Shown: piece after piece, positions 4,038-23,200 of the stretch
Position numbering within the stretch: the first letter of the stretch is position 1
Layout of the letters: every line of letters starts with the position of its first letter
DNA from: Perkinsus olseni
Lineage: Eukaryota
Reading direction: 5' to 3'
DNA length: 48,603 nt
Assembly: GCA_013115125.1 (NCBI GenBank)
Contig: JABANN010000236.1
Span: forward strand, 1-48,603
Notes under the pieces: model-generated
The model's database searches: none
What the model saw: only the letters and a program-made list of their open reading frames with translations
What the model was told of the DNA's origin: nothing
Program-made: the position numbers and the translations under genes

Positions 4038-7000
4038 ATGCATTTGAAGAAGCTCACCATAAAAGGCTATAAGACTTATCGCGATCTCACCACAATAGTA
4101 GACCTTCACGCCGGGGTTAACGTATTCGTAGGACTCAATGGCAGCGGCAAGAGCAACATGTGAGGAACTGGTGAAGGTGTGGTATCATGCACCGTTGCAG
4201 ATTCTCGGCTATACGGTTCGCCCTCGGTGGGGACGGAGTGACCAAAGAACAGCAGCGTCGAGCGCTGCTGCACGAGAGTAGGTGGTCGGATGTTGCCAAG
4301 AATGCTCGTAATTAGTTGAATTAGGTGGTGGCCAGCAGGCCTCCTCTGCGTTTGTAGAGGTCACGTTTGATAACTCTGACGGGAGGATACCTGTGGATAA
4401 AGCGGAGGTTGTCCTGCGGCGGACCATCACCATCACCACCGACGTGTAGGCCTTCTAGAGGAATCCCATGCAGGCCTGGCGCGGTGGTAGGTACGAGTGG
4501 AACGGTAAGGAGGTGGCGAAGGCCGAGGTTGACAGCTGGCTGGAGGGCGCTGGAATCAGTAATAAACTTAACACGTAAGGGTAATCTGCAGGACTGTTCC
4601 CGAAGGAGTAGAGATGACGCAGGTACTGTATAGTAGAAAATGGCAAGGTGACGGCTCTGACTCAAATGTCCGACGCAAAACGGTTGGATCTCTTGAAGGA
4701 AGTATCGGGAGCTCATGTATATGATGTTCGGTGAGCCTAGGCTAGGGTCAAATATTATTTTGCATCATCCTCGTTGATGGGGCTGTAGTTTCTGGTAATT
4801 GCGTGATTTAACCCGACTCAGGCGTGCTGAATCGTTGGCTGTTTTGGAGACTACGAGGAAGAAGAGGGAGCATATAGCGGAGGTGATGAATGACATCAGA
4901 GGGAAACTTGATAGGCTTGATGAAGAACAGCAGGAGCTGCAAGAGTAGGCAACGAGCGACTCGGACTTGGCAGTTCCCTTGGTAGGGCACGGGCCCTCAC
5001 GCGCGAGAAGGTGGCAATAGAGAGTGTCATTGCTGACAGAGAGAAGAGGCAATATAGGGAGCGTATCAAGGAACTCGAGCGGCAGGTGGTAGACGCCACT
5101 GGATGATTGTCTGGGTCATCTCACATGTGCAGGCGTCTGAGGTCCTCGCCGATTTGCGAGGGGAGCGCGGTGTGATGACCGACATGTCGGCTGAGCTGGG
5201 AAGAGAAAAGTCTGCGGCGGAAGAATTGATGAAGGAGCTCAACGATACCTCGGGAAGATGTGACCGTCTTAGGGGAAGCCGAGGAGCCGTGACGGATTTG
5301 GCTTCTTCGACTGTCAGTGACAACCCTGTCGAAGCGCCGAGAGAAACTGTCTAGAGAGCACGCGGGACTCGCGGGCGCCTCTGAAGGCCTGGAGCACGCC
5401 GCTGAACAGAGTACTCTAACAGGGCCACGGAGAGACAGCATCCTGGCTGAAACAATAGGCACAGGGGAGATTGAAGAGCTACGGGGAAGACTCGAGGGAG
5501 CGAAGGAGGAGTTGAATGACGTGACCATCAGTCTTGAGGCGAAGAGAGCTGAGGTCCAGGGTGTAGAGGACGAGCAGGAGTAGGAACATTGAGTGGATCA
5601 ATTGTGGCGGTTACGCTATTGTATGCAGTTCCTTGCGGTCCGAGTTGGCTGTAATGAATGGAAAGCGCGAGAAGTTGGCTACCAAGAAAGGATCTGGCCC
5701 CAGGTGAGCATTGTTGAGTAATGATCCTCGTAGTTAGCCCAGATCATCCAAGACAATCTGCGGAGCTGCGACTCGTCGAGATCAGCAAAAATAACCAAAT
5801 ATTGAAATGGAAAAAATGACCCCGGCCCGATTCGAACGGACAACCTTCTGATCTGGAGTCAGATGCGCTACCGTTGCGCCACAGGGCCCGATGTTTGTGT
5901 TCACTGGCTACCTTTGACGTTCGTCTGTAGCATAGCCTCGTATAGGGCATCCGATCTGATTACGTGAGAGGCATCCTCTGATTGTCGAGCATGTTCATCT
6001 CGTAGTTACGCATCGGTGGAGGAGCGGAATGAATACCTATCGCAGAAGGTGGAGTCGAAGAGCAAACGCCTCGAGGAAGTCGAGGGAGTCTTGGAGAAGC
6101 AGACAGCTCAGATCGGCGAAGACCAGCAGGAAAGTGGGGCAACTGGGTGGATCATTTTCTCGTCGATTAATTGACATGTTTGGAAGACGTTTAACCTGTG
6201 GTTCGTCCTTTCTTAGTTGATCATGTTACCGCCGAGATTGCCCGACTCGAGGCAGAAAGTGAGGCGTACTCGAGGCAGGATAGTATGGCCGATATAGAAG
6301 CAACCGAAAGAGACATTACTGATACACAGAACAAGATAAGGGAGAAGACCAAGGTAGTACTCCGCCTAGACCTAGACGTTGCTCAACAGCACGGAGACTC
6401 CAATTATTCTTCATGGCCGATTCATGTGATCTACCCGTGACTTGGCTAGTGACGGTCTGGCCGTCGTGTCTCGAGCGGGTCTTCCGGAGTTATCGTTCGT
6501 ACCTGATTCGAGGCCATCGCCGGGTTGAGGGAACAAGAGAGCATACTTTCTAAAGAGCGGCAAGAATTGTTGGAAGCAGTCTGGCGAACAGCACCTCCTG
6601 CCGTACGAGAAGGGTGAGTCTTTAATGTCACGCTATCCTGATCGCGGGCCCCTCGAGGCTGGCCAGCAACGTGGCAGGTACACATGGCTGATGGAGTCTG
6701 GAATTGATGGCATTCATGGCTTGCTCATTGAGCATGTGGATATACTAGAAGTACCTCATCGAAAATATTTTTTGACGCTTCGGGGTTCATAGCATACGCA
6801 ACATCAATCCGCGATTGGTTGCTGCTCGCTATTCGGAATATACCAAGTATGAGCTGCTTTCAGCAATATCGTTTATGCGCGGAAGTCACGGGCGGTATAT
6901 CCCTGTTCAACGTTCTGGTGGAGAATGATGAAGTTGGGGAGGAGTGCCTCAATTTCATACGAGAGAAGCAAGCCGAGATAGGGAAGCCGTTGCGAATAAC

Positions 7001-12090: not shown

Positions 12091-15000
12091 ATGCATTTGA
12101 AGAAGCTCACTATAAAAGGCTATAAGACCTATCGAGATCTCACCACAATAGTAGACCTTCACGCCGGGGTTAACGTATTCGTAGGACTCAATGGCAGCGG
12201 CAAGAGCAATATGTGAGGTCAGCTTCTGACTGAAACTTGTGCAGCTCGTAATTGAGTAGATACTCAGCTGTCCGCTTCGTCCTCGGGGGAGAAAGGATTG
12301 CCTCAGAGCAGCAAAGGAGATCCTTGCTTCATCAGAGTAACGCCGAACACCGGTTGGACGAGTGACTGGGCCCCTTAGTTTGACGAATGGTCGTACTGTA
12401 GGCCATGGGCGGCAAGCAAGCTCGGCTTATGTCGAGCTCACACTCAACAACGCTGACGGTCGAATACCCATCGATAAAGCAGAGGTTACCTTGAGGAGGA
12501 CAATCACCCTGAAAACAGATGTGTAGCTACAGTTGAACGTTAAAGTTCGAAGTATCCTGATGGCCAGGTATCACTGGGATGGCAAGCAGGCTACAAAGAG
12601 CGAAGTTAACAGCTGGCTGGAAGCTGCCGGCGTCAGCACTAAGAGCAGGACGTGAGATCACGCCATTCTGAAGCGTTCGATGCAGCTTTAGGGGGGAGAG
12701 CAGAGTCCACTTCAGATATTACGTGGTAGAGCAAGGCAAGGTCACATCGTTGGCCCTGATCTCCGATGCTAAGCGTCTTGATTTGCTGAAAGAAGTCTCG
12801 GGGACACGCGTCTACGACTTGAGGTCGGTGCTTCCTGCCACCCCGGTGATACGGTCGAGTGGCTGATGTGGTAGGCGGGAAGAATCTCTAGCGGTTATTG
12901 AGAAAACCAAAAAGAAACGAGAACAGACGTCGGAGATCATCGAGGAGATACGCGAGAAACTCGACCAGCTAGACAGAGATCGGACGGAACTTCGCGAGTG
13001 AGCACTAACGAGTCAGTATTTTCTAACTTTTTATTTGATAGATTCGAGCATACTGTTCGCGAGAAGACGGCTCTCGAAATCGTCATAGCTGATCGGGAGA
13101 GGAAACAATGCGGAGAGAGGATAAAAGAACTCGAGAACGAGGTTCGTCTGCCTCGTCGATCTCACCGATATGGTGTCGACGCGAGAATTGTTGTGAACAT
13201 CGACTCAGGTTGATATGGACTTAACGGCAGTGCGCCGAACCTTTCTGCCTCAGGCCAAGGAAGTACAGCGCGAGTTTGCAGAGGAAAGTGCGGTACTTGC
13301 TGACATGACCAGAGAGCTTGAGGAGGAGAAAGCTAAACTTGACACCGTCAACGAGGAGGTCAAAGGATACAGTTCTAGAGGTTCGATCATGAACCAGAGA
13401 TTCGCCTTGGTCGAGAAGCTCTCTCTAGTTTCGGTACTTAGCAAAGATCGTAACGGATTATCGATTGAGCATGCGGAGCTTTCAGCCGGCTACCAAATGC
13501 GTGAGGGAGGCGAAATAGCGAGTAGGTAGCTCATAATATGCTGTTCGTGTTATACTGTTAATGGAAAGGTTATGGTGAGGTCGACGGGCTCCGCAGTGAG
13601 CTGGAGACCACCAGACGGGAGGCCGAATGTTTGACGGAAGAGCTTGAACATGAGCGGGAAGCACTCGCCGTTAACGAAGGGAGGCTCCGGTGACTACAAC
13701 TCTCCTCGCTAAAGAACTCGAGGGCCTCTGGAGGCTACGCTCTGGCATTTGATCAAAACTGCTTGGAGTTCACTACTGAGTGAACAGTAGCGAACTTGCG
13801 GGGCAGTATACAATGACAGCTGTGGGGTTCGAACCCACGCCCTTTCGGAATGGCGCCTAAAGCCACCGCCTTAGACCACTCGGCCAAACTGTCTGTGCGT
13901 AAGTTGACATTAACTACGAGTATTGCCATCTGACATCGATGCAATGCTCTCCCTGACGTGTTCTCCCCTCAGCGAGCTCCATGCTGATGTTGATGAGCTC
14001 AACAGAAGCAGAGAGAAGTTCGTGATTAGAGACGGTCCCAAGTAGTCGGGAACTGGTCAAACATACGCTGGAATATCAAAGTCATCCGAGGTCCGCAACA
14101 TTCTCCCAACCGGAAGACACGTTAACACACAAACTGGAGGTCAGAGAGAGACGGTACGAGGAGGTTCGAGAGATTGCAAAACAGCAGAAGCACAACGTAG
14201 ACGCCCAAGAAAATGAATGTGAGCCGTGAACATTACCAACGTGCGACACAATTATCGATCGGCAATGACCATTCGAATTCATCTGCTATGGTGAGCTATT
14301 CCATTTGAAGGGCTCTCTGGGAAGCCTTGAAATTTGATCAAGTTAACTATCAACATAAGCCCGAGCTGGAGCATGCAAGAACTCTCCCTCTGCGCAGACT
14401 CCATCATTGTACGTAAGATAGAAGAAAAGGAGGCAGAAAGTGAGGTCGTTAACGAGAACAGTGCACGTTTGAAAAGGGAGGTCGAAGACGTGAGCGCTGA
14501 GATCCTAGGAGTGTCTGAACGATTGAGGCAAACCAACAGAGTAGGCGCGTAATGAACGTCTTCTGAGGGCTCTACAGCGAACATGGGCCATAGTCCACAG
14601 CCTTCAGGTCCTCTCTTCCGTCGGAAAGAACCTAACTGAGCTGCGAAAGGAGAAGCAAGATCTATTGGATACCTTTTGGCAAGCCAGTCCGCCCGGGACT
14701 CGGGAAGGGTAGTCGTGCACGATCTCCGGATACCCGAGCAGTCTTCCACTTGCGTTTGAGATACGCCGCCATCATGGAAGCGAACCTCCCGGGAGTCCAC
14801 GGCTTACTGCTCGAACATATAAGTGTACCTGAGGTAAGATCGCTGCTCGGCTACAAGCATTATCCCAGCGGCGCAGCCTCGGCGTTCAGGAGTATCGGCT
14901 GGCCGTCGAGGTGACGGCAGGGCCGCAGCTGTTCAATATACTAGTCGATGATGGGGAAGTGATGGGCCGATGCATGGACCTGCTGAAGAGAAAGCAAGCA

Positions 15001-18000
15001 GAGAGTGGCAAATCATTCAGAGCCACCTTCATGTCTCTAGAGGAGGTATTTATCCGCAATAAGACGCTTCCGGCCAACGTGAAGACTCACACCCTAGGCG
15101 AAGGAACGCGACTCGTCGCAAAATCCCCCAGGCAGCGTAGCCGACTCACTCCCCCTCGCCGATGTCATCGAAAGCCCGGACTGGGTCCGGTGCGTGGTCC
15201 AGAGGGTGTGGGAGAGGTATCCCGACAGCTGTAACGTGCTACTGTAATGAGGCTATCTCTGCATAGGTTCATTCTCGTCACGGGAGCAACTGAGGGTCCA
15301 GCTGGTCATGAGTTCAGCACAGTCACGCGTGAAGGGGATATCTTCAGCCGGAACGGTGAGCTCATGGCGATGAAGTCCGTACATAGCAGCGACTCATGAT
15401 AGCTCATCCATCAGGTCTACTCGAGGGAGGTTTTTTCGACTCTCGACGATGCACAAGACTGGAGGAGTGGTAATCCTACAGTCCATCCTCCCTCGGGATA
15501 TGCAGTCTGTATGTACATCTTTCATCGGCTTCAGGGAGCGTGTGTCAAGGGTTAAGCATGAAGTGAAGTTGCTCGAGGACAGACTGGAGAACGTCACTGC
15601 CAATTTGTTGACGGAGCGGTCTGCCGAGAAAAACCTCAAGCGAAGGCTCCTCAGCATTCGAGTTAACTTACAGCGGAACCTCCGAGTAGGAGCCTCTGAC
15701 GAGGCCTAGTTATCATCGAGCCTTGCTTCCCGATCAGGCGGAGGCCGTGAAAGGTCGACAACTTTCGGAACTCCGAGATGCAAGGCAGCGATCGAGCGAC
15801 AGCATCTACTTGGCGGCGCGGTAGCCTTCGTCTCATTTCCGATAAGCGAACAGCGAGCTCACAGCTCCTGGACCTAACGAACGCTTCATCGTCAAGTTTC
15901 AAGGTTGTCGAGAGAATACGATGCCGAACAGAAGTCACTGGAACTCGAAATCGCCGCGATAGAGGCTGAGCGCAGTGAGTTACCGACCAGTCGTAGCGTT
16001 GGAGCCGTGTATGCATAGAATCTCCAGTCACTGATACGGGAGAGCTCACGGAGGCGGACGGCGTACAGCTCGAGAATCTGGTAGAGGAGCTAGCGAAGAA
16101 GCGTCAAGAAGTGTCGGAGAACTCTCAGTGATATCGCACTGCTGCTTCCTCCTCCTAGCTGGACACCTCCTGATTTGGTTTCGCGTAGGAAAGTCGCGGA
16201 GCGCCGCGCTGCTATCGGCAAACTCCGGTCTCGACTGACTCTGTTGATCGACGGACGATTGTCCCCGCTCGAGGAGCAGTTGCGTGCTGCGATCTTGGCG
16301 ACTACGGAGGAGCAGCAAGATGACTTAGAGAAGGAGAGGTTGGCGTCACTTCGGGCGAACTGTCTCGTGGGAGCTTATCCTCAGGAGTATTCGATGGTTG
16401 GCTGGTGAGCTCACTGAGATCGAACAGGAACTCGCCCTCGCCAGCGAGAGGCTCTCGGAGTTACGCGAGCTTCAGTCATCCAAATGTAGGCTTCCTTAAT
16501 GGTACGTCATCATCCGGTGTTATTCAGCGTCGTGCGTGGAGGGCATGGAGGCCGAGGCTGCTGATCTCGAGGCGTCAGTTGCGAGTCTCAAGGGAGCTTA
16601 TGATGAGAAGACAAATGAAATAAAGGTGTAAGGACGAGTCGGGCTAGCAGCGAGCTCTCCTTGCACGGATTGCACCTCAGCTACGAGGAACGACGTGCCC
16701 TTGCTGACACTAAGTTGGACGACATCATCGCTCACCAACCCGACGTGGACAACCTTGACGATGTTATCAGGGAGATGACCGATGTAACTGTCACCATTCG
16801 GTTGGAATACTCCTTTCTGGTGGGTGTTTCAAAACTTCGGGTACGTCGGAGTGTTCGGACGTGGCATGTACACGTATCCGCTGCGAAGAACGATGTGAAC
16901 ATCGAACGGTATATGGTAAAGTTACCTACGTTTTACTATCTCAAGTAAGCTAGTTTGCACGGCAAGAAACACGATGGTGTTTTCTCACAACTTCTACTAT
17001 CGTTGGTAGCAGGCTGGGGCACTGGAAATACTTTTCCACTCCTGGATCGGGCTCCCAAAGTTGATTGGGATGGCGTCGCTGCTCAGGACACGCCGCAGCT
17101 GCGTAAGAGGCTCTTGAAGTGCGCCAAGGCTGTGTCAAGATTCGCCAGCGTGAATAACAAAGCCGCCGAACAGTGAGATGGTTGAGGCTTAACGCCTCTC
17201 TTGCTGACCACATTAATAGGTTTGGGGAGTTCAACGGCCAATATGAAGATCTCCTGCAGAAGCAACGGGAAATGGATGAGGGCCAGGTGAGTACGTGCCT
17301 TTAAGGCATCTTCCTGACCCATGCAGCGAAAACTGTGCTTGAGTTACGCCAATGATTATTATATAGTTGATGACTGCCAGGTTTGTAGGGGTCGGAACGC
17401 TTGTTGTGTCAGGCGGCTATAGATGACCTCATCAGGAGCCTCGACGCCGAGAAGAAAGATAATATTGTCAAGAGCTTCGCCCAGATCAACGAGAACTTCT
17501 CCGAAACATTCTCCGCACTTGTAGACCGCCCGTTACTCTGTTTGTGCTGCCAGTCGGTGGCTCAAGGTGCCCGACGGAAGCGCAAAAATGAAACTGCTTA
17601 GACGGGGTCACAGCGAGGAGGACGGCGAAGATAGTGACGACACGACCTCGTCAATGACAGACGAGGAGTGAGCTGACGACTACACACGATGGCTTCTCGA
17701 CTGTATCACAGGTACGTCGGTGTGGCGCTGGAGGTTACCTTCTCTCGCAGCCGGAGTCGAATGAAGAGAATGTATGAGCTCAGCGGAGGTCAGAAGACTG
17801 TGGTACGTGTCGGGGCGAGGAGCCTTCGCAACTTTATGCGAAAAGCACGAGGACATTCCGGACACAAGTTTCATCAGATTGCTGAGAACGACGTCCATCA
17901 TTCAGGTCGCAGTTGCACTCCTCTTCGCTATGCAGAAGACAGAGCAGCCGCCGTTCTATCTATTTGACGAGATTGATGCTGCTCTCGATCCCCAGTAAGA

Positions 18001-18286
18001 TTCCGAGACAGCATCTGGCACACGCGAAGGTGCATTGTCGTACCCAAGGTACCGTGAGGCTGTGGCGCGTCTCGTAGCATCTGTTGCCAACCCTGAGTCT
18101 GGCGCTCCAGCCCAGGTGACTAAGACGGTTGACGACTGCGAGAGGGAATCGGATCCTCCTCAGGTTATCTGCACAACGTTTCACTCTGAGCTGTGTCAAG
18201 TCGCTGACAGGCATTATCGAGTGTCTATCAATGACTGCAGTAGCAGCGTCGCCGTAATCAATGGCGGCTGTCAACATCTACTATGA
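12091..18286 (+). CDS. SMC3: Cohesin subunit SMC3 paralog 2 (canonical ATPase motifs), multi-exon
   Basis: Same N-terminal exon with [10 protein letters not shown]-loop YYVVEQGKV. Hinge [25 protein letters not shown] and [60 protein letters not shown] plus FYLFDEID is SMC3-type rather than SMC1-type. Confidence 0.9.
13814..13893 (-). tRNA. tRNA-Leu (UAG), antisense within an intron of SMC3 paralog 2
   Basis: Reverse complement GACAGTTTGGCCGAGTGGTCTAAGGCGGTGGCTTTAGGCGCCATTCCGAAAGGGCGTGGGTTCGAACCCCACAGCTGTCA: 80 nt with a long variable arm, anticodon loop TT-TAG-GC and GTTCGAAC T-loop. Confidence 0.95.
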
Positions 18287-18489
18287 TGAGCACTTTTATC
18301 ATGTCCTTCTACTTAGTTTTCTCTCCTCAAGCAAGTCCTTTTCCTGCGAGTCAGTGCATCTGGCTTTGCCGCTAACGTTCGTTTACTTCTACTGACCTGG
18401 TTGTGTTGTGGAGAGCGGATATGCGCCGACTTCCAGAAACGCTTCAATAGAATATCTTCCCCAACTCGTTTCCTTCATCAACTAAACGT

Positions 18490-20110
18490 TATGGGAGAGA
18501 CTGATACGTATGTGGAACTCGACTACAGATCTACCAAAACTAAGGAAGAACGAAAAGAGGGCACGACACGCAATAGGTAGGCACACTTTCAAGATTATGG
18601 AGTAAACGCTGTCGATAAACGTCCTCATTCACGCGTCGGAACGGCTCGCTGCGTGTGGGAGGCATCCAGCTCGCCAGCTGAGTTAAGCTGTGCCAGCTCA
18701 TCTTTGTCCATGGCGGCAGCCTCGGCCCGTGCTAGTGCCAGATCGCTCAGTATGCCTTCTGTGTCCCAGCTTTTCGATGCCTGACACAAGTCAAGGAGCG
18801 CAGAGGTCCGAGAGGAGATCATTCTACCCGGACCCAGTAGTCGAACACACACACGCTCTGGTCGAGTTTCTTCAAAAGCCAGAACTCGAATGGAGGGCAG
18901 GTTGTCGGCAAGTCTGCGGCGGAGAGCTCTCCCGCTGCACCTGACCAGTGCATGGTGGTATTTAGGACCAAGCGTGGCCGTCAGGAGAGCCTTGCGAAAC
19001 ACGGACGCTTACTCAGTATTTTTGCTCCCGCCGACGGCGTCAGCAGAACTGCCCGAGGAGTATGGGCATAGTAGCTTTCATATTCCGTGCAGAAACCTCG
19101 CTTGGTAGAGCCACCTCCGATGCGACCAGGCGAGTCGAAAGAGCAGTGCTAAGCATGAATACATGCAGCATGCTTCTTCTGGTTCGCCGTCGCCGAGCTC
19201 CGAAAATTCTTCCCGAGATTGAGCGGAGCCCGTAAGCCACGAACTGTGGGTAGAGCCCTTCCCCCACCTGCGGAACTCTCGTGCCGGGCATTTCCGGCAG
19301 TTGTGGAAAGAGCGAGACGAAGTCGGGTATGGGTCCGATGACGGTCGCAGGAGCGGATGTGGGTTCATGAGCAGGGTACATAATCAGCTGTGCCGTGAGG
19401 GGACGATGAGAAAATCATTCCTGTGCTGTTGACAATCATAATCATTCAAGCTTGTCATCATCTAAGGGAGGTAGCACCTATGTTATCGTGGTCGTAATGA
19501 TACTCGACGTAGACAAATAACTTTCCTCCGCACGCTCCTCTAGACAATTGACGCTTTCGCAAACAGAGCCCCTGCACACATCGTCGAACCAGACGGCTAG
19601 CATCCGGTGAGAGGAAGGCCAAGGTGATCGGACATGAGCATCGCTGAGCGAGAATTTGGTGAACAGCAATACAGTGTCAGAGAATAGAATATAATAACAT
19701 CGCCAAAAGGGAGAGTGCATCCCAGGCATGTCGGTTTGAACTCATCAGTCATCCTGGGCTAGTCTGCAGAGCTCGAGCCTGGCTCTTGGAGGGGCAGCTC
19801 TCTTCCGATCAGCTTGGGAATCACGCATAACAAACCAGAGGGAGCCTCGGGGCACATCCCTTTGGGAGGGGAGACCCCAGTCGGCGAACAAGATGCCGCA
19901 GACCCTGCAGTGCGGGGTACCACGATGCCCACGCTGCTCAGTATCCCCAAAGTCAGGCGTTGTGCGGACGCGTGTACAAACGCTGTAGTAGCCGAAAATT
20001 TTGACCCAAAAGTGAGAAGGAATATCGAATGAGGAATGACGGCCTGGCAACGAAAGGCAGGTCTCAGGAGCACACCCTAAGTCCGCCGCCGTGAACATTG
20101 ACAAGTCAAC
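18490..20110. other. Possible multi-exon hypothetical gene, strand and structure unresolved
   Basis: Coding-like composition with 100-125 aa ORFs (e.g. 18625-19002, 19040-19381, 19759-20073 on -) and shorter ORFs on +. No recognisable domain. Confidence 0.25.
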
Positions 20111-20280: not shown

Positions 20281-23200
20281 TCACACAGCCGAGCGCAGCG
20301 TCGTGAAGTCGAAGCTGCCAGCTGGCCCCGGTCGGGCGCCCAGCTCAGAACTTCTAATCTCGAAAAGACTGCAATCACCATCGAAGAGGAATTGCAGTGG
20401 TAGACCAGCCTTCATGAGGGTTACACCTCGGAGTTGCATACCACTGAACTTAGACACCGGTACAGGATTACACACAACTTGTAAAGTCTGCGGGTTACGT
20501 ACGTATCTGCACGACAACTCACACAACATATACACGGGGTGGGGCGTACGAGCTCGGGGCTAGGTCGATGATGTCGTACAGAGTGTCTTCTGATAGGCCC
20601 TTCAGCTGAAGCCTCGGAATGATCTTACCAACCTGATCACAGTGAGGACAGGATGCCCATCATCACGATGCTGCAATGGCCAGCATCGCCGACCTCCTTC
20701 AAGTGTAACATGCAGACCATAACAATGGCCCTAGACCTGTCACATGCTACCAGCATCCACGCAGTCGCTTCGGCGCCGAACACCTACAGTAGACAAGCTC
20801 GACTTTTCCCAATCCCAACTTGCCTGATACGAACGTGCCGAGCCTTTATCCAGTTAACCCACCTGTGTCGAGTGTATGTCGAAAGGGTCCCAGAGCCTGT
20901 AGAAGTTGCCCTTGAGGAGGTTTGCATCGATACACGACTTGTAGACGTGCAGCAGGGCCTTTATCTCCTCAAGAAGCTCGACGTCCGCCTTCATGAGGTT
21001 CAACTCCACACCCATTGCCCCAAGCATGGACATGCCTCCTCGAACGTTACCCGGTAATATTCGTCCGGTCTGAGAAACTCATACTGAATCGAACTGAGTG
21101 GGAGGCACGGGGAGGAGGGGGTAAGTGGAGACGCTCTCGCCAATTGCTATAACGCGTGCCAGCGAGAGTGGTACTTGGTGGTTGGGTGTAGCTGTAATAT
21201 GACTGCCCATGGTGATCATAGGATACCCCACAGAGAGGCCCGCCTGTATACGTGCTCTACAGCAGGCGTCGGTGTTGTCCGATGCCCAGATTTGGGGACC
21301 AAAATACAACATGCCGGCATCGAACCTGCCACCTCCTCCAGCGCATGTCTCGAAGCGTACCAGAGGGAATTCACAAGTGATAGAGTCCAGAACCTGACGA
21401 TGGTTGACCCCTGCTGGGAGATGCTTCCCTTCGTCCCCCCCCCCACCTGATACACTCCGAGCATGTGTCTGTGCATGGTCTCCCCCTGCGGCCTGTCATC
21501 CGATAATAAAGCACTCTGAGCCTCCGTTAGATGACGATTCATATCCCACTTCACATACGCTATATTGCAGCTCGACAGGATGGACCTCAACAGGGGAAGT
21601 CTACCCACACCCCCGGCACTTGTCGATGTACCTCAGTTTTTTGAGGACGTATCGTCTGACCCTCTCCTGACTGAAGTCTAGAAGGAACTGATGTCTTCTC
21701 ATAGTCATCGGCCTATTCTTAGCATGTAGGGTACAGTCTTTGTACTTCTGTAGGAGATGACATCCTGGAGACGCCATCTCGGGTTCTATCCAAATACCGA
21801 AACCCAATCCCAACTGATTGATGGCATTGCCTGCACAATGCATGATTATAACAGATCCATGAGAGCTCGCTGCACGTACATAGGTGCGGTATGCCGAACG
21901 GTAGTTTCTCCTTGTCGACCTCCCAGTCCCCCAACCCGCCGGTATCATCATTCCTGTTGGTAAACCATCCATCGTCTATGACCACCATCTCCGCTCCAAC
22001 AGCAGCAGCATGACGGGCCAGCTGCATGACCTGAGCCACAGAGGAGTCGCCATTTACTCCAGCCATCCCGCCAATCCTCACCCTATCATGAGTAACGTCG
22101 AAGTACATCGACTCCCAGGTGTTGCAAACCACCGGTGGCCTTGTGTAACGCCATCTGACCGTACCAACATCCCCGTACATCGCCATCATTATGAGCTTTA
22201 CCGCGACGGAATGAGCCTGTCTTGCAGGATCTTGTGGAACTTATGCGTGAGGCTGGTGGCGCCAGAGCTGCTGAATATCGTTATGGTCTCAGGGGTGGTG
22301 ATGGACTCGCCGGGGTACAGCTTCCACTTGAACGTCAATGAGTTGAAACTGACCAAAGAGCGCCCGCCGAACTGGGCGCAGATTAAATGGTATGTTGATG
22401 CTCATCAGCCCTTGTTGCACCCGGGCAGAATCTACTCGACGACGTCGGAACATTAAAGGTAGGAAAGACACGAGGGCAAGGGGTCATCATGCCTTACCCG
22501 ACATTGACTCTGAGACGGTTCGTCTCGTTTGTGTCACACTCGATAAGGAAGCTTCCACTGTACCTAACACGAGCAGCTTGTCCCTCTTATGACAGCACGA
22601 AGCAGGGGACTCGAGCATAGCGTAGACGACTTGCCCCAAGCGTACACGAACATGAATCCCCAATGGTAGCCAGCATCCTCATTAAACGGTCCCTTGCTGA
22701 TAACACACATAGGGTTGTGCATATGACTGCTCACACCACGAGTAGACTCGATACGGGTGGCCCCTTGTTGCAGCTGAAAGCTTATCTTCTGGGCCTCCCT
22801 GCCCCAGGAACCTGACGGGGTCGATCCCAGGACTCCCAGGTGCGCCTCGATGACACCGCATCACCTCCGAAGTGTGTAACATGATGGTTGCCAGACTCGA
22901 AGTTGGAAGTGGTGCTCATGAAGTGGTCCACGCCGACAGGAAGGCCAGAGGATGCCGGGTTTATCATTCTAGTCTTCCGGACTATAACGTCCCATTGAGG
23001 ATAGACAGAATAGAAGAGCGTCACAGTCAGGCCCGACACGCTGTCTTGCAAGTCGACCTCGAGAGTGATGCACTCGTCGTCTGACTCACACCGAACCTGC
23101 GCCGCACAACCTCGAGGCAGCGAAGACCATTCCAATAACCCACTTGAGGTAGGGAAGAATGGGGCCTCTCGGAAATGCGCCCTTTTCCTCGAGTTATTCT

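What the first reader, a model, noticed from the sequence alone, without database searches (positions are those of the whole stretch)
4038..18286. Tandem, deeply diverged SMC3 paralogs: possibly two cohesin types
SMC3 is usually single-copy; known cohesin specialisation involves SMC1 alpha/beta, kleisins and STAGs. Here two full-length-looking SMC3 genes lie 144 bp apart. Both keep the hinge GX6GX3GG motif and many shared intron positions, but their coiled coils are strongly diverged. This suggests sub-functionalisation, e.g. mitotic versus meiotic or stage-specific (inference).
Basis: partly seen in the sequence, partly recalled or inferred. Interest (0 to 1): 0.7.

Follow-up and report, generated by a model that had tools for sequence, protein, structure and literature searches.

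The report
Tandem diverged SMC3 pair in Perkinsus
A shellfish parasite carries two old, side-by-side copies of the cohesin gene SMC3; both are intact, and one has changed residues that every other SMC3 examined keeps, which hints at two kinds of cohesin.

Summary
The window is a whole Perkinsus olseni contig. It holds two complete head-to-tail SMC3 genes, copy 1 at 4038-11946 (35 exons, 1220 aa) and copy 2 at 12091-18286 (34 exons, 1218 aa), 144 bp apart. No stop codon or frameshift interrupts either, and every intron is GT-AG. The proteins are 46% identical: heads 55-75%, coiled coils 35-41%. All 33 copy-2 introns match copy-1 introns in place and phase. Both score as SMC3, about 350 bits against 111 or less for any other SMC class. 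P. chesapeaki has an ortholog of each copy on one contig, and trees put the duplication inside the Perkinsus lineage, after its split from dinoflagellates. Two findings are new. Exon 1 is homogenised by gene conversion in both species. The copy-1 type has replaced the Q-loop glutamine and the second signature-motif glycine, both invariant in 253 of 253 other SMC3s, and lacks both acetyl-acceptor lysines; copy 2 keeps the catalytic residues and one lysine. Two functionally different SMC3 subunits are therefore likely, but a mitotic-versus-meiotic or stage-specific split is untested. No RNA evidence could be obtained, and the SMC1 and kleisin inventory could not be examined.

The parts
4038..11946 (+). 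SMC3 copy 1 (copy-1 type; GenBank FOL46_003743): 35 exons, 1220 aa in my model
   Evidence: Spliced alignments of P0008, P0007 and P0288 and the model with its translation. Best solved-structure match is SMC3 at 347.6 bits. Pfam SMC_N and SMC_hinge.
12091..18286 (+). SMC3 copy 2 (copy-2 type; GenBank FOL46_003744): 34 exons, 1218 aa in my model
   Evidence: P0001 is reproduced exactly by 35 exons. My model ends at the stop at 18286, as the P. chesapeaki ortholog does. SMC3 scores 358.5 bits. Pfam.
11947..12090 (+). 144-bp spacer between the stop of copy 1 and the ATG of copy 2
   Evidence: Sequence read. No similarity to the copy-1 upstream region.
4038..4165 (+). Gene-conversion tract, copy-1 side: exon 1 (Walker A) plus the first 6 nt of intron 1
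   Evidence: 118 of 122 exon nucleotides are identical to copy 2 and 41 of 41 aa are identical. Identity starts at the ATG and ends after GTGAGG. Third codon positions: 36/40 identical against 381/1120 in the other exons, binomial P = 2.5e-13.
12091..12218 (+). Gene-conversion tract, copy-2 side
   Evidence: In P. chesapeaki both paralogs also share one exon-1 peptide, with three species-specific residues.
4630..4647 (+). Copy 1 Q-loop IVENGK: Asn replaces the invariant Gln
   Evidence: Gln in 253 of 253 non-Perkinsus SMC3s. Asn in P. olseni copy-1 type and Arg in P. chesapeaki copy-1 type.
12723..12740 (+). Copy 2 Q-loop VVEQGK: canonical Gln kept
11466..11480 (+). Copy 1 signature motif LSGSQ: the second Gly is replaced by Ser
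   Evidence: Gly in 253 of 253 non-Perkinsus SMC3s. Ser in all 4 copy-1-type sequences that cover the site.
17779..17793 (+). Copy 2 signature motif LSGGQ: canonical
4432..4494 (+). Copy 1 ITTDVY (spans intron 3): Thr-Thr where human SMC3 has K105-K106
   Evidence: Alignment to human SMC3 chains; columns.
12509..12571 (+). Copy 2 LKTDVY (spans intron 3): Lys-Thr at the K105-K106 position
7519..7605 (+). Copy 1 hinge motif GDTITWKGLMKGG (spans an intron)
15334..15431 (+). Copy 2 hinge motif [13 protein letters not shown] (spans an intron)
9662..11398 (+). Exceptional 1737-nt intron of copy 1. GenBank places three extra exons in it (10052-10163, 10671-10776, 10827-10923).
   Evidence: The extra 105 aa have no counterpart in copy 2, in the P. 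chesapeaki ortholog or in other SMC3s, and they split the match to solved SMC3 into two stretches. No Pfam hit on its ORFs. It holds a 49-nt palindrome at 10382-10430.
13381..13428 (+). In-frame 48-nt GT..AG stretch in copy 2, annotated as coding; probably the 34th shared intron
   Evidence: It lies exactly at copy 1's extra intron, in the same phase, and is absent from the P. chesapeaki copy-2-type model P0009.
18317..18577 (+). Terminal exon of the GenBank model of copy 2; doubtful
   Evidence: P0001 splices 18254^18317. The P. chesapeaki ortholog ends where the unspliced reading ends, at 18286. No Pfam hit.

Best explanation
SHOWN. The region holds two complete, head-to-tail SMC3 genes of Perkinsus olseni. 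They come from one tandem duplication in the Perkinsus lineage, after its split from dinoflagellates and before P. olseni and P. chesapeaki diverged. Both copies have stayed intact and keep the same exon-intron layout. Their ATPase heads are conserved, while the coiled coils, and in copy 2 the hinge, have drifted. Exon 1, which encodes the Walker A strand-loop, is kept nearly identical between the neighbours by gene conversion, independently in each species. Copy 2 keeps every canonical ATPase residue and one of the two acetyl-acceptor lysines. The copy-1 type has replaced the Q-loop glutamine and the second signature glycine, which no other SMC3 examined has changed, and has no lysine at the acetylation site.

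INFERRED. The two proteins are alternative SMC3 subunits. Each closes a ring with SMC1 and a kleisin, so the cell makes two cohesin isoforms. The copy-2 isoform is a canonical ATP-hydrolysing cohesin that can still be regulated through one lysine. The copy-1 isoform still binds ATP, because Walker A and Walker B are intact, but its hydrolysis is altered and probably slowed at both composite sites: its own site through the Q-loop and the SMC1 site through the signature motif. I think the division of labour is between a dynamic cohesin and a stable or differently regulated one.
For: Gene models are intact, with no stop or frameshift, and 34/34 and 33/33 introns are GT-AG.

Both copies are SMC3 by score. 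Copy 2 (P0001): 358.5 bits to SMC3 against 110.6 for SMC2, 80.4 for SMC1 and 55.0 for SMC4. Copy 1 (P0288): 347.6 against 74.6, 56.5 and 62.0.

The trees agree. The Perkinsus clade has 100 SH-aLRT support and splits into a copy-1 type and a copy-2 type. Each type holds P. olseni and P. chesapeaki sequences, at 100/100 under LG+G4 with 53 rows and 100/99 under LG+C20+F+G4 PMSF with 34 rows. The sister group is dinoflagellate SMC3s, named.

The tandem arrangement appears in three assemblies. P. chesapeaki FOL47_008538 and FOL47_008539 lie on one 24143-bp contig. A second P. olseni assembly has a copy-1 3' part (P0007) and a copy-2 5' part (P0145) on one 7216-bp contig with consecutive locus tags.

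There is constraint on both copies:
- Synonymous sites are saturated (pS 0.79) while pN is 0.35.
- Ortholog identity in the heads is 84% and 77% for copy 1 and 88% and 71% for copy 2, against 42-63% in the coils.
- Of 136 columns that are at least 90% conserved in 46 other SMC3s, copy-1 types keep 109 and 107 and copy-2 types keep 107 and 106.

Motifs are asymmetric. The Q-loop Gln and the second signature Gly are each invariant in 253/253 other SMC3s and are changed only in the copy-1 type. Walker A Lys and Walker B Asp-Glu are kept in both copies.

At the acetylation site, copy 1 has T-T (A-T in P. chesapeaki) and copy 2 has K-T. Other SMC3s have Lys in 218/253 and 239/253, and dinoflagellates keep K-K.

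Gene conversion of exon 1: 118/122 nt identical, third positions 36/40 against 381/1120 elsewhere, P = 2.5e-13. Species-specific residues at positions 7, 8 and 17 are shared by both paralogs within each species.
Against: I have no expression, splicing or protein-interaction evidence of any kind.

I could not count SMC1, kleisin, Scc3 or Eco1 genes, because no genome is held. The SMC survey says Rad21/Scc1 and Scc3 were rarely detected in alveolates (PMC8665677, passage).

The direction of specialisation is ambiguous. The copy-1 type, which carries the odd catalytic residues, is the slower-evolving paralog since speciation: 820/1193 = 69% ortholog identity against 660/1199 = 55%, and hinge 76% against 45%. 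That would suit a housekeeping role for copy 1 and a fast-evolving specialised role for copy 2.

The Q-loop residue differs between species, Asn against Arg, and P. chesapeaki also changes the next Gly to Asp. This may mean relaxed constraint rather than a new optimum.

A relative-rate test at sites shared with outgroups shows no asymmetry in P. olseni, for example 97 against 92.

The effect of the substitutions on ATP hydrolysis is inferred from general knowledge of ABC and SMC ATPases. It was not measured.
Confidence: 0.55

Rival explanations
1. The two genes are redundant duplicates. Both encode interchangeable SMC3 subunits, kept for dosage or by chance, and their differences are neutral drift.
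For: Both have the same length and architecture, both are SMC3, and they retain conserved sites about equally. The relative-rate test is not significant in P. olseni. A second tandem pair, of GH36 alpha-galactosidase genes, lies in the same contig, so local duplication is common here.
Against: Redundant copies rarely persist past saturation of synonymous sites (pS 0.79) and through a speciation. Copy 1 has changed two residues invariant in 253/253 other SMC3s, and the signature change is shared by both species. The hinges are only 42% identical.
Confidence: 0.15
2. One paralog, most likely the copy-1 type, has left cohesin. It pairs with a different SMC or with the other paralog and works in a new complex.
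For: The copy-1 type has non-canonical Q-loop and signature residues and no acetylation lysines. The hinges have diverged strongly. Perkinsus marinus and dinoflagellates were reported to lack SMC5 and SMC6 (PMC8665677, passages), which leaves a functional gap.
Against: There is no partner evidence at all. Arm lengths are still matched, 1220 against 1218 aa with few indels, as expected if both pair with the same SMC1. Dinoflagellates lack SMC5/6 too, and no comparable split was established for them here.
Confidence: 0.15
3. One copy is silent or is a decaying pseudogene.
For: No RNA evidence was obtained. Copy 1 has an odd 1737-nt intron and altered catalytic residues. Copy 2 evolves faster and varies more among P. 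olseni sequences, 82-93% against 90-99% identity.
Against: Both reading frames are open across 34-35 exons, with all splice sites intact, despite saturated synonymous divergence. Both have full-length orthologs in P. chesapeaki with conserved heads.
Confidence: 0.05
4. The pair is an artefact: two haplotypes or a mis-assembly placed in tandem, or one copy belongs to another SMC class.
For: I recall, from no call here, that Perkinsus assemblies are polyploid and heterozygous. The window is a short contig.
Against: 46% protein identity with saturated synonymous sites is not allelic. The same neighbourhood appears in a second P. olseni assembly and in P. chesapeaki. Both copies score three to six times higher against SMC3 than against SMC1, SMC2 or SMC4.
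Confidence: 0.02

Closest known systems
Canonical cohesin SMC3 (human SMC3, yeast Smc3/Psm3)
   Same: Same domain layout: SMC_N split head, two long coils and a hinge with G-X6-G-X3-GG. Length is about 1200 aa. Walker A and Walker B are present. The best matches in the solved-structure search are SMC3 chains over the full length.
   Different: There are two genes instead of one. Both lack the second acetyl-acceptor lysine (human K106), and copy 1 lacks both lysines. Copy 1 also lacks the Q-loop Gln and the second signature Gly. Both are about 10-15 residues shorter at the C-terminus than the other SMC3s in the alignment.
Daphnia pulex SMC3A/SMC3B and the duplicated Anopheles SMC3 (PMC2680839; passages read)
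   Same: A lineage-specific, strongly diverged second SMC3 that keeps a hinge and both ATPase ends. The authors proposed that it serves a distinct cohesin.
   Different: According to that paper the Daphnia copies differ greatly in exon number (21 against 14), and SMC3B falls outside the metazoan/fungal SMC3 clade. Here the copies are adjacent, share 33 of 33 introns and form one clade, and exon 1 is homogenised by gene conversion.
Vertebrate SMC1-alpha and meiosis-specific SMC1-beta (mentioned in PMC2680839; otherwise recalled)
   Same: An SMC subunit of cohesin is duplicated and the products build alternative cohesin rings.
   Different: That case concerns the other SMC subunit, and the meiotic role of SMC1-beta is established. 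No stage or role is known for either Perkinsus copy.
Lineage-specific SMC2, SMC4 and SMC6 duplications in ciliates, Trichomonas and plants (PMC8665677; passages read)
   Same: Late duplications of single SMC subfamilies in protists.
   Different: That survey of 59 eukaryotes, which included Perkinsus marinus, names no SMC3 duplication in the passages I read.
Tetrahymena single cohesin (PMC3610610; passages read)
   Same: An alveolate with clear Smc1 and Smc3 homologs.
   Different: Tetrahymena uses one cohesin complex for mitosis and meiosis. Perkinsus has two SMC3 genes.
ABC ATPases with one degenerate nucleotide site, such as CFTR and TAP (recalled, not tested here)
   Same: Non-canonical signature or Q-loop residues with intact Walker A, which gives ATP binding with slow or no hydrolysis at that site.
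   Different: These are a different protein family. The analogy says how copy 1 may work, not what it is.

Membership tests
SMC3 (cohesin SMC subunit), by descent | Closer to SMC3 than to SMC1, SMC2, SMC4 or prokaryotic Smc | tested here: met
   Copy 2: 358.5 bits to SMC3 against 110.6 (SMC2), 80.4 (SMC1) and 55.0 (SMC4). Copy 1: 347.6 against 74.6, 56.5 and 62.0. Both sit inside an SMC3 tree next to dinoflagellate SMC3s. The trees held no other SMC class as outgroup.
SMC family | Split SMC_N head, central hinge domain, about 1200 aa with two long arms | tested here: met
   Pfam SMC_N at 1.3e-47 and 7.6e-54, and SMC_hinge at 9.5e-14 and 5.5e-18, for P0288 and P0001. Lengths 1220 and 1218 aa.
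SMC family | Hinge glycine motif G-X6-G-X3-GG | tested here: met
   GDTITWKGLMKGG in copy 1 and [13 protein letters not shown] in copy 2.
SMC/ABC ATPase | Walker A lysine and Walker B Asp-Glu | tested here: met
   Present in both copies and in their P. chesapeaki orthologs.
SMC/ABC ATPase, copy 2 | Q-loop glutamine and signature LSGGQ | tested here: met
   VVEQGK and LSGGQ, as in 253/253 other SMC3s at the Gln and at the second Gly.
SMC/ABC ATPase, copy 1 | Q-loop glutamine and signature LSGGQ | tested here: not met
   IVENGK (Arg in P. chesapeaki) and LSGSQ (LGGSQ in P. chesapeaki). 0 of 253 other SMC3s depart at either residue. I therefore file copy 1 as an SMC3-derived paralog with non-canonical catalytic motifs, not as a canonical SMC3 ATPase.
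Cohesin SMC3 | Pair of acetyl-acceptor lysines (human K105/K106) | tested here: not met
   Copy 1 has T-T and copy 2 has K-T. Other SMC3s have Lys in 218/253 and 239/253. Whether the remaining lysine of copy 2 is acetylated cannot be tested here.
Cohesin SMC3 | Forms a heterodimer with SMC1 through the hinge and binds the kleisin N-terminus at its neck | not testable with these tools
   No Perkinsus SMC1 or kleisin sequence was available, because no genome is held. No complex prediction was run.

The most novel reading that the evidence does not exclude
The copy-1 type is a naturally 'hydrolysis-attenuated' SMC3, conserved in at least two Perkinsus species. It binds ATP but turns it over slowly at both composite sites and cannot be acetylated. 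It would therefore build a constitutively stable cohesin, or an entirely new SMC complex in a lineage reported to lack SMC5/6. The canonical copy 2 would do the dynamic, ATP-driven work. Evolution would then have hard-wired into two genes the stable and dynamic cohesin states that other eukaryotes switch between by acetylating one SMC3.
Probability: 0.2. Interest if true: 0.75.

Novelty: new variant of a known kind. Interest (0 to 1): 0.5.

Why it matters
Cohesin specialisation is normally achieved by swapping kleisins, STAG/Scc3 subunits or SMC1, or by acetylating the single SMC3. Here a retained pair of SMC3 genes differs at exactly the residues that drive and regulate ATP hydrolysis. That would be a natural experiment on how the two ATPase sites and the acetylation switch of cohesin can be separated. 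It would also give a handle on chromosome biology in perkinsids, the sister group of dinoflagellates, whose chromatin is highly unusual. The exon-1 tract is also a clean small example of gene conversion confined to one exon of otherwise saturated paralogs. The practical point is that the public models of both genes probably contain errors: three extra exons in one, and a retained intron plus a false terminal exon in the other.

Tried and rejected
- Whole genome: none is held for this window. SMC1, kleisin, Scc3, Eco1 and further SMC3 copies could not be counted.
- RNA evidence: the look-up of sequencing runs listed 7 runs from 4 studies, with no RNA holder listed. Transcription, splice junctions and stage specificity remain open.
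- Earlier notes of this scan: 4 look-ups returned nothing.
- Metagenome scan with P0001: 251 pattern matches, 0 confirmed by tblastn.
- P. marinus: no P. marinus protein appeared among the 120 listed hits or the 150. The length window and the 50% clustering could hide one, so I cannot say whether P. marinus has both types.
- dN/dS between orthologs: not possible, because only proteins of the other Perkinsus records were available. Between the paralogs dS is saturated, so no ratio could be estimated for the whole gene; only a few 60-codon windows gave one.
- The 'careful' bootstrap tree did not finish in time. The quick PMSF tree is reported in its place.
- Large intron of copy 1: no tandem repeats in 3500-19000, no Pfam domain on its ORFs, and no copy elsewhere in the window apart from its own 49-nt palindrome. 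It is not shown to be a transposon.
- Structure and complex predictions were not run. SMC heads and hinges would pass by likeness to solved cohesin, and no Perkinsus SMC1 was available as partner.
- Literature: searches for Perkinsus with SMC3, SMC3 paralog/duplication phrases, the locus tags and accessions, Perkinsus with cohesin and SMC3a/SMC3b phrases found no description of this pair. Supplements were not opened.
Full report
WHAT IS THERE

The window is an entire 48603-bp contig of Perkinsus olseni. A search with one hinge exon returned P0001 (FOL46_003744, P. olseni), whose longest contig has exactly the window's length. My spliced aligner reproduces P0001 letter for letter from window DNA.

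A six-frame read of 3500-19000 shows two runs of short plus-strand exons, each starting with the same 41-residue peptide. Three guide proteins were aligned to the DNA with a protein-to-genome dynamic programme that allows GT/GC-AG introns and frameshifts: the P. chesapeaki protein P0008, the P. olseni fragment P0007 and the GenBank model P0288. They give these models:
- Copy 1: 4038-11946, 35 exons, 1220 aa.
- Copy 2: 12091-18286, 34 exons, 1218 aa.

No frameshift or stop was needed. All 34 and all 33 introns are GT...AG. Most introns are 41-113 nt; one in copy 1 is 1737 nt.

ARE BOTH SMC3?

Yes.
- Against all solved structures, annotated copy 2 scores 358.5 bits to SMC3. It scores 110.6 to SMC2, 80.4 to SMC1 and 55.0 to SMC4.
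- Annotated copy 1 scores 347.6 bits to SMC3, against 74.6, 56.5 and 62.0.
- Both have Pfam SMC_N and SMC_hinge domains and the hinge motif G-X6-G-X3-GG.

HOW DIFFERENT ARE THEY, AND HOW OLD?

The proteins are 46% identical, 556 of 1200 aligned residues. By domain the figures are N-head 75%, N-coil 35%, hinge 42%, C-coil 41% and C-head 55%. Synonymous sites are saturated (pS 0.79), while pN is 0.35.

All 33 copy-2 introns coincide in column and phase with copy-1 introns. The one extra copy-1 intron corresponds to an in-frame 48-nt GT..AG stretch of copy 2, at 13381-13428. The P. chesapeaki copy-2-type model lacks that stretch, so it is probably a 34th shared intron that was annotated as coding.

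A full-length search found that P. chesapeaki has both types on one 24143-bp contig with consecutive locus tags:
- P0008, 69% identical to copy 1 (820/1193).
- P0009, 55% identical to copy 2 (660/1199).

A second P. olseni assembly has a copy-1 3' part (P0007) and a copy-2 5' part (P0145, 92.6% identical to copy 2) on one 7216-bp contig with consecutive tags.

Two trees give the same picture. One has 53 rows under LG+G4. The other has 34 rows under a site-heterogeneous PMSF model; it is a quick search, because the careful search did not finish. In both:
- All Perkinsus sequences form one clade with 100 SH-aLRT support.
- That clade splits into a copy-1 type and a copy-2 type, each holding both species (100/100 and 100/99).
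- The sister group is dinoflagellate SMC3s, named.

The trees contain no other SMC class, so they show when the duplication happened, not the class. The class rests. The duplication therefore happened in the Perkinsus lineage, before P. olseni and P. chesapeaki split. It is not an assembly or haplotype artefact.

ARE BOTH UNDER CONSTRAINT?

- Between orthologs the heads are conserved in both lines: 84% and 77% for copy 1, 88% and 71% for copy 2. The coils are 42-63%.
- Of 136 alignment columns that are at least 90% conserved among 46 other SMC3s, the copy-1 types keep 109 and 107 and the copy-2 types keep 107 and 106.
- Tajima-type relative-rate counts with six outgroups show no asymmetry in P. 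olseni, for example 97 against 92. In P. chesapeaki there is a weak excess on the copy-2 side.
- Since speciation the copy-2 type has changed faster, most strikingly in the hinge, where ortholog identity is 45% against 76%.

Open frames across 34-35 exons with saturated silent sites, together with this domain pattern, argue that neither copy is a pseudogene.

1. Exon 1 evolves in concert.
- The 122-nt exon differs at 4 silent positions only. Identity starts at the ATG and ends six bases into intron 1.
- Third codon positions are identical at 36 of 40 sites, against 381 of 1120 in all other exons. The binomial P is 2.5e-13.
- In P. chesapeaki the two paralogs again share one exon-1 peptide. It differs from the P. 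olseni peptide at positions 7, 8 and 17.
- This is the signature of gene conversion between the neighbours, acting separately in each species and confined to the Walker A exon.

2. The catalytic motifs are asymmetric.
- In an alignment with 253 non-Perkinsus SMC3s of at least 1000 aa, the Q-loop glutamine and the second glycine of the LSGGQ signature are each invariant, 253 of 253.
- Copy 2 and its relatives keep both residues.
- The copy-1 type has Asn (Arg in P. chesapeaki) at the Q-loop and Ser at the signature glycine. It also has Leu for a Gln present in 249 of 253 others.
- Walker A Lys and Walker B Asp-Glu are intact in both copies.
- At the position of human K105/K106, anchored on solved human SMC3, copy 1 has T-T (A-T in P. 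chesapeaki) and copy 2 has K-T. Other SMC3s have Lys in 218 and 239 of 253, and the dinoflagellates keep K-K.

HOW IT MOST LIKELY WORKS

What is shown: an old, retained tandem pair, concerted evolution of exon 1, and motif asymmetry.

What is inferred rests on general knowledge of SMC and ABC ATPases, which I recall rather than tested. The Q-loop glutamine helps position Mg and the attacking water at the protein's own site. The signature motif clamps the ATP held by the partner head. The motif list for SMC proteins appears in a passage of PMC8665677.

On this reasoning, copy 1 should still bind ATP and engage with SMC1 but hydrolyse differently, probably more slowly, at both composite sites. 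Copy 2 should behave as a standard SMC3.

Acetylation of Smc3 inhibits the loader-stimulated ATPase. My basis for this is the abstract of 10.1101/2022.11.23.517716 in the listing and recall. A copy without the lysines and with altered catalytic residues could therefore be a permanently 'stable-state' subunit.

I think the two genes most likely give two cohesin isoforms with different dynamics (confidence 0.55). Which isoform serves which stage is unknown. The slower evolution of copy 1 would equally suit a housekeeping role for copy 1 and a specialised, fast-evolving role for copy 2.

RIVALS

- Redundancy (0.15). It is disfavoured by retention through a speciation and by the changes at invariant sites.
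- Departure of one copy into a new complex (0.15). It cannot be excluded. Perkinsus was reported to lack SMC5/6 (PMC8665677, passages). The matched arm lengths argue for a shared SMC1 partner.
- A silent or decaying copy (0.05).
- An artefact or another SMC class (0.02).

COMPARISON WITH WHAT IS KNOWN

The closest precedent is the pair SMC3A/SMC3B of Daphnia pulex and a duplicated SMC3 of Anopheles. Those authors also suggested distinct cohesins (PMC2680839, passages). According to that paper the Daphnia copies differ greatly in exon number, 21 against 14, and SMC3B falls outside the metazoan/fungal SMC3 clade.

A survey of 59 eukaryotes that included P. marinus names duplications of SMC2, SMC4 and SMC6, and no duplication of SMC3 in the passages I read (PMC8665677). 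Tetrahymena, another alveolate, uses a single cohesin (PMC3610610, passages).

Five literature searches found no description of the Perkinsus pair. Supplements were not opened. Both genes are present in public annotation as unnamed or generically named SMC proteins.

ANNOTATION POINTS

- FOL46_003743 carries three extra exons (105 aa) inside the 1737-nt intron. They have no counterpart in copy 2, in the P. chesapeaki ortholog or in other SMC3s. They also break the match to solved SMC3 into two stretches.
- FOL46_003744 probably retains a 48-nt intron and carries a false terminal exon at 18317-18577. The P. chesapeaki ortholog ends where the unspliced frame ends.
- RNA data are needed to settle these.

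VERDICT

The pair is a real, ancient, lineage-specific SMC3 duplication with one non-canonical member. It is a new variant of a known kind and of moderate interest (0.5).

Noticed in passing
window 21082-23198 (-) and 25467-27605 (-): A second tandem gene pair lies on the minus strand. Two sets of exon-sized ORFs each hit Pfam Melibiase and Glyco_hydro_36N, the domains of a GH36 alpha-galactosidase. Local tandem duplication seems common on this contig.
   Followed up: no
window 45984-48533 (-): An 850-aa open frame at the contig end hits the integrase zinc-binding domain (3.3e-09) and, below the curated cut-off, an RT RNase H-like domain. It is probably a retrotransposon pol remnant.
   Followed up: no
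window 43692-45230 (-) and 33992-35362 (+): Two long intron-free ORFs of 513 and 457 aa have only weak Pfam hits below the cut-off (TIR_2 at 23.9 bits; Asp_protease_2 at 20.8 bits). Their nature is unclear.
   Followed up: no
window 10382-10430, inside the 1737-nt intron of copy 1: A 49-nt near-perfect palindrome: its self-match on the opposite strand is 98% identical. The intron is about 35 times the usual intron length here and has no recognisable content.
   Followed up: partly
window 3259-3636 (+): The gene just upstream of copy 1 has a TPR-like exon (TPR_1 at 8.1e-05, below the cut-off).
   Followed up: no
proteins P0125 and P0011 (not in the window): Two clearly different SMC3 transcripts carry the label of one dinoflagellate, Gymnodinium smaydae. 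P0125 branches below all other dinoflagellate SMC3s. This could be an independent SMC3 duplication or prey contamination.
   Followed up: no
window 11947-12090: Only 144 bp separate the stop of copy 1 from the ATG of copy 2. An AATAAA lies about 25-30 nt before that ATG, followed by a pyrimidine-rich run. The two genes may share a transcript or use trans-splicing. Trans-splicing in Perkinsus is recalled, not tested.
   Followed up: no
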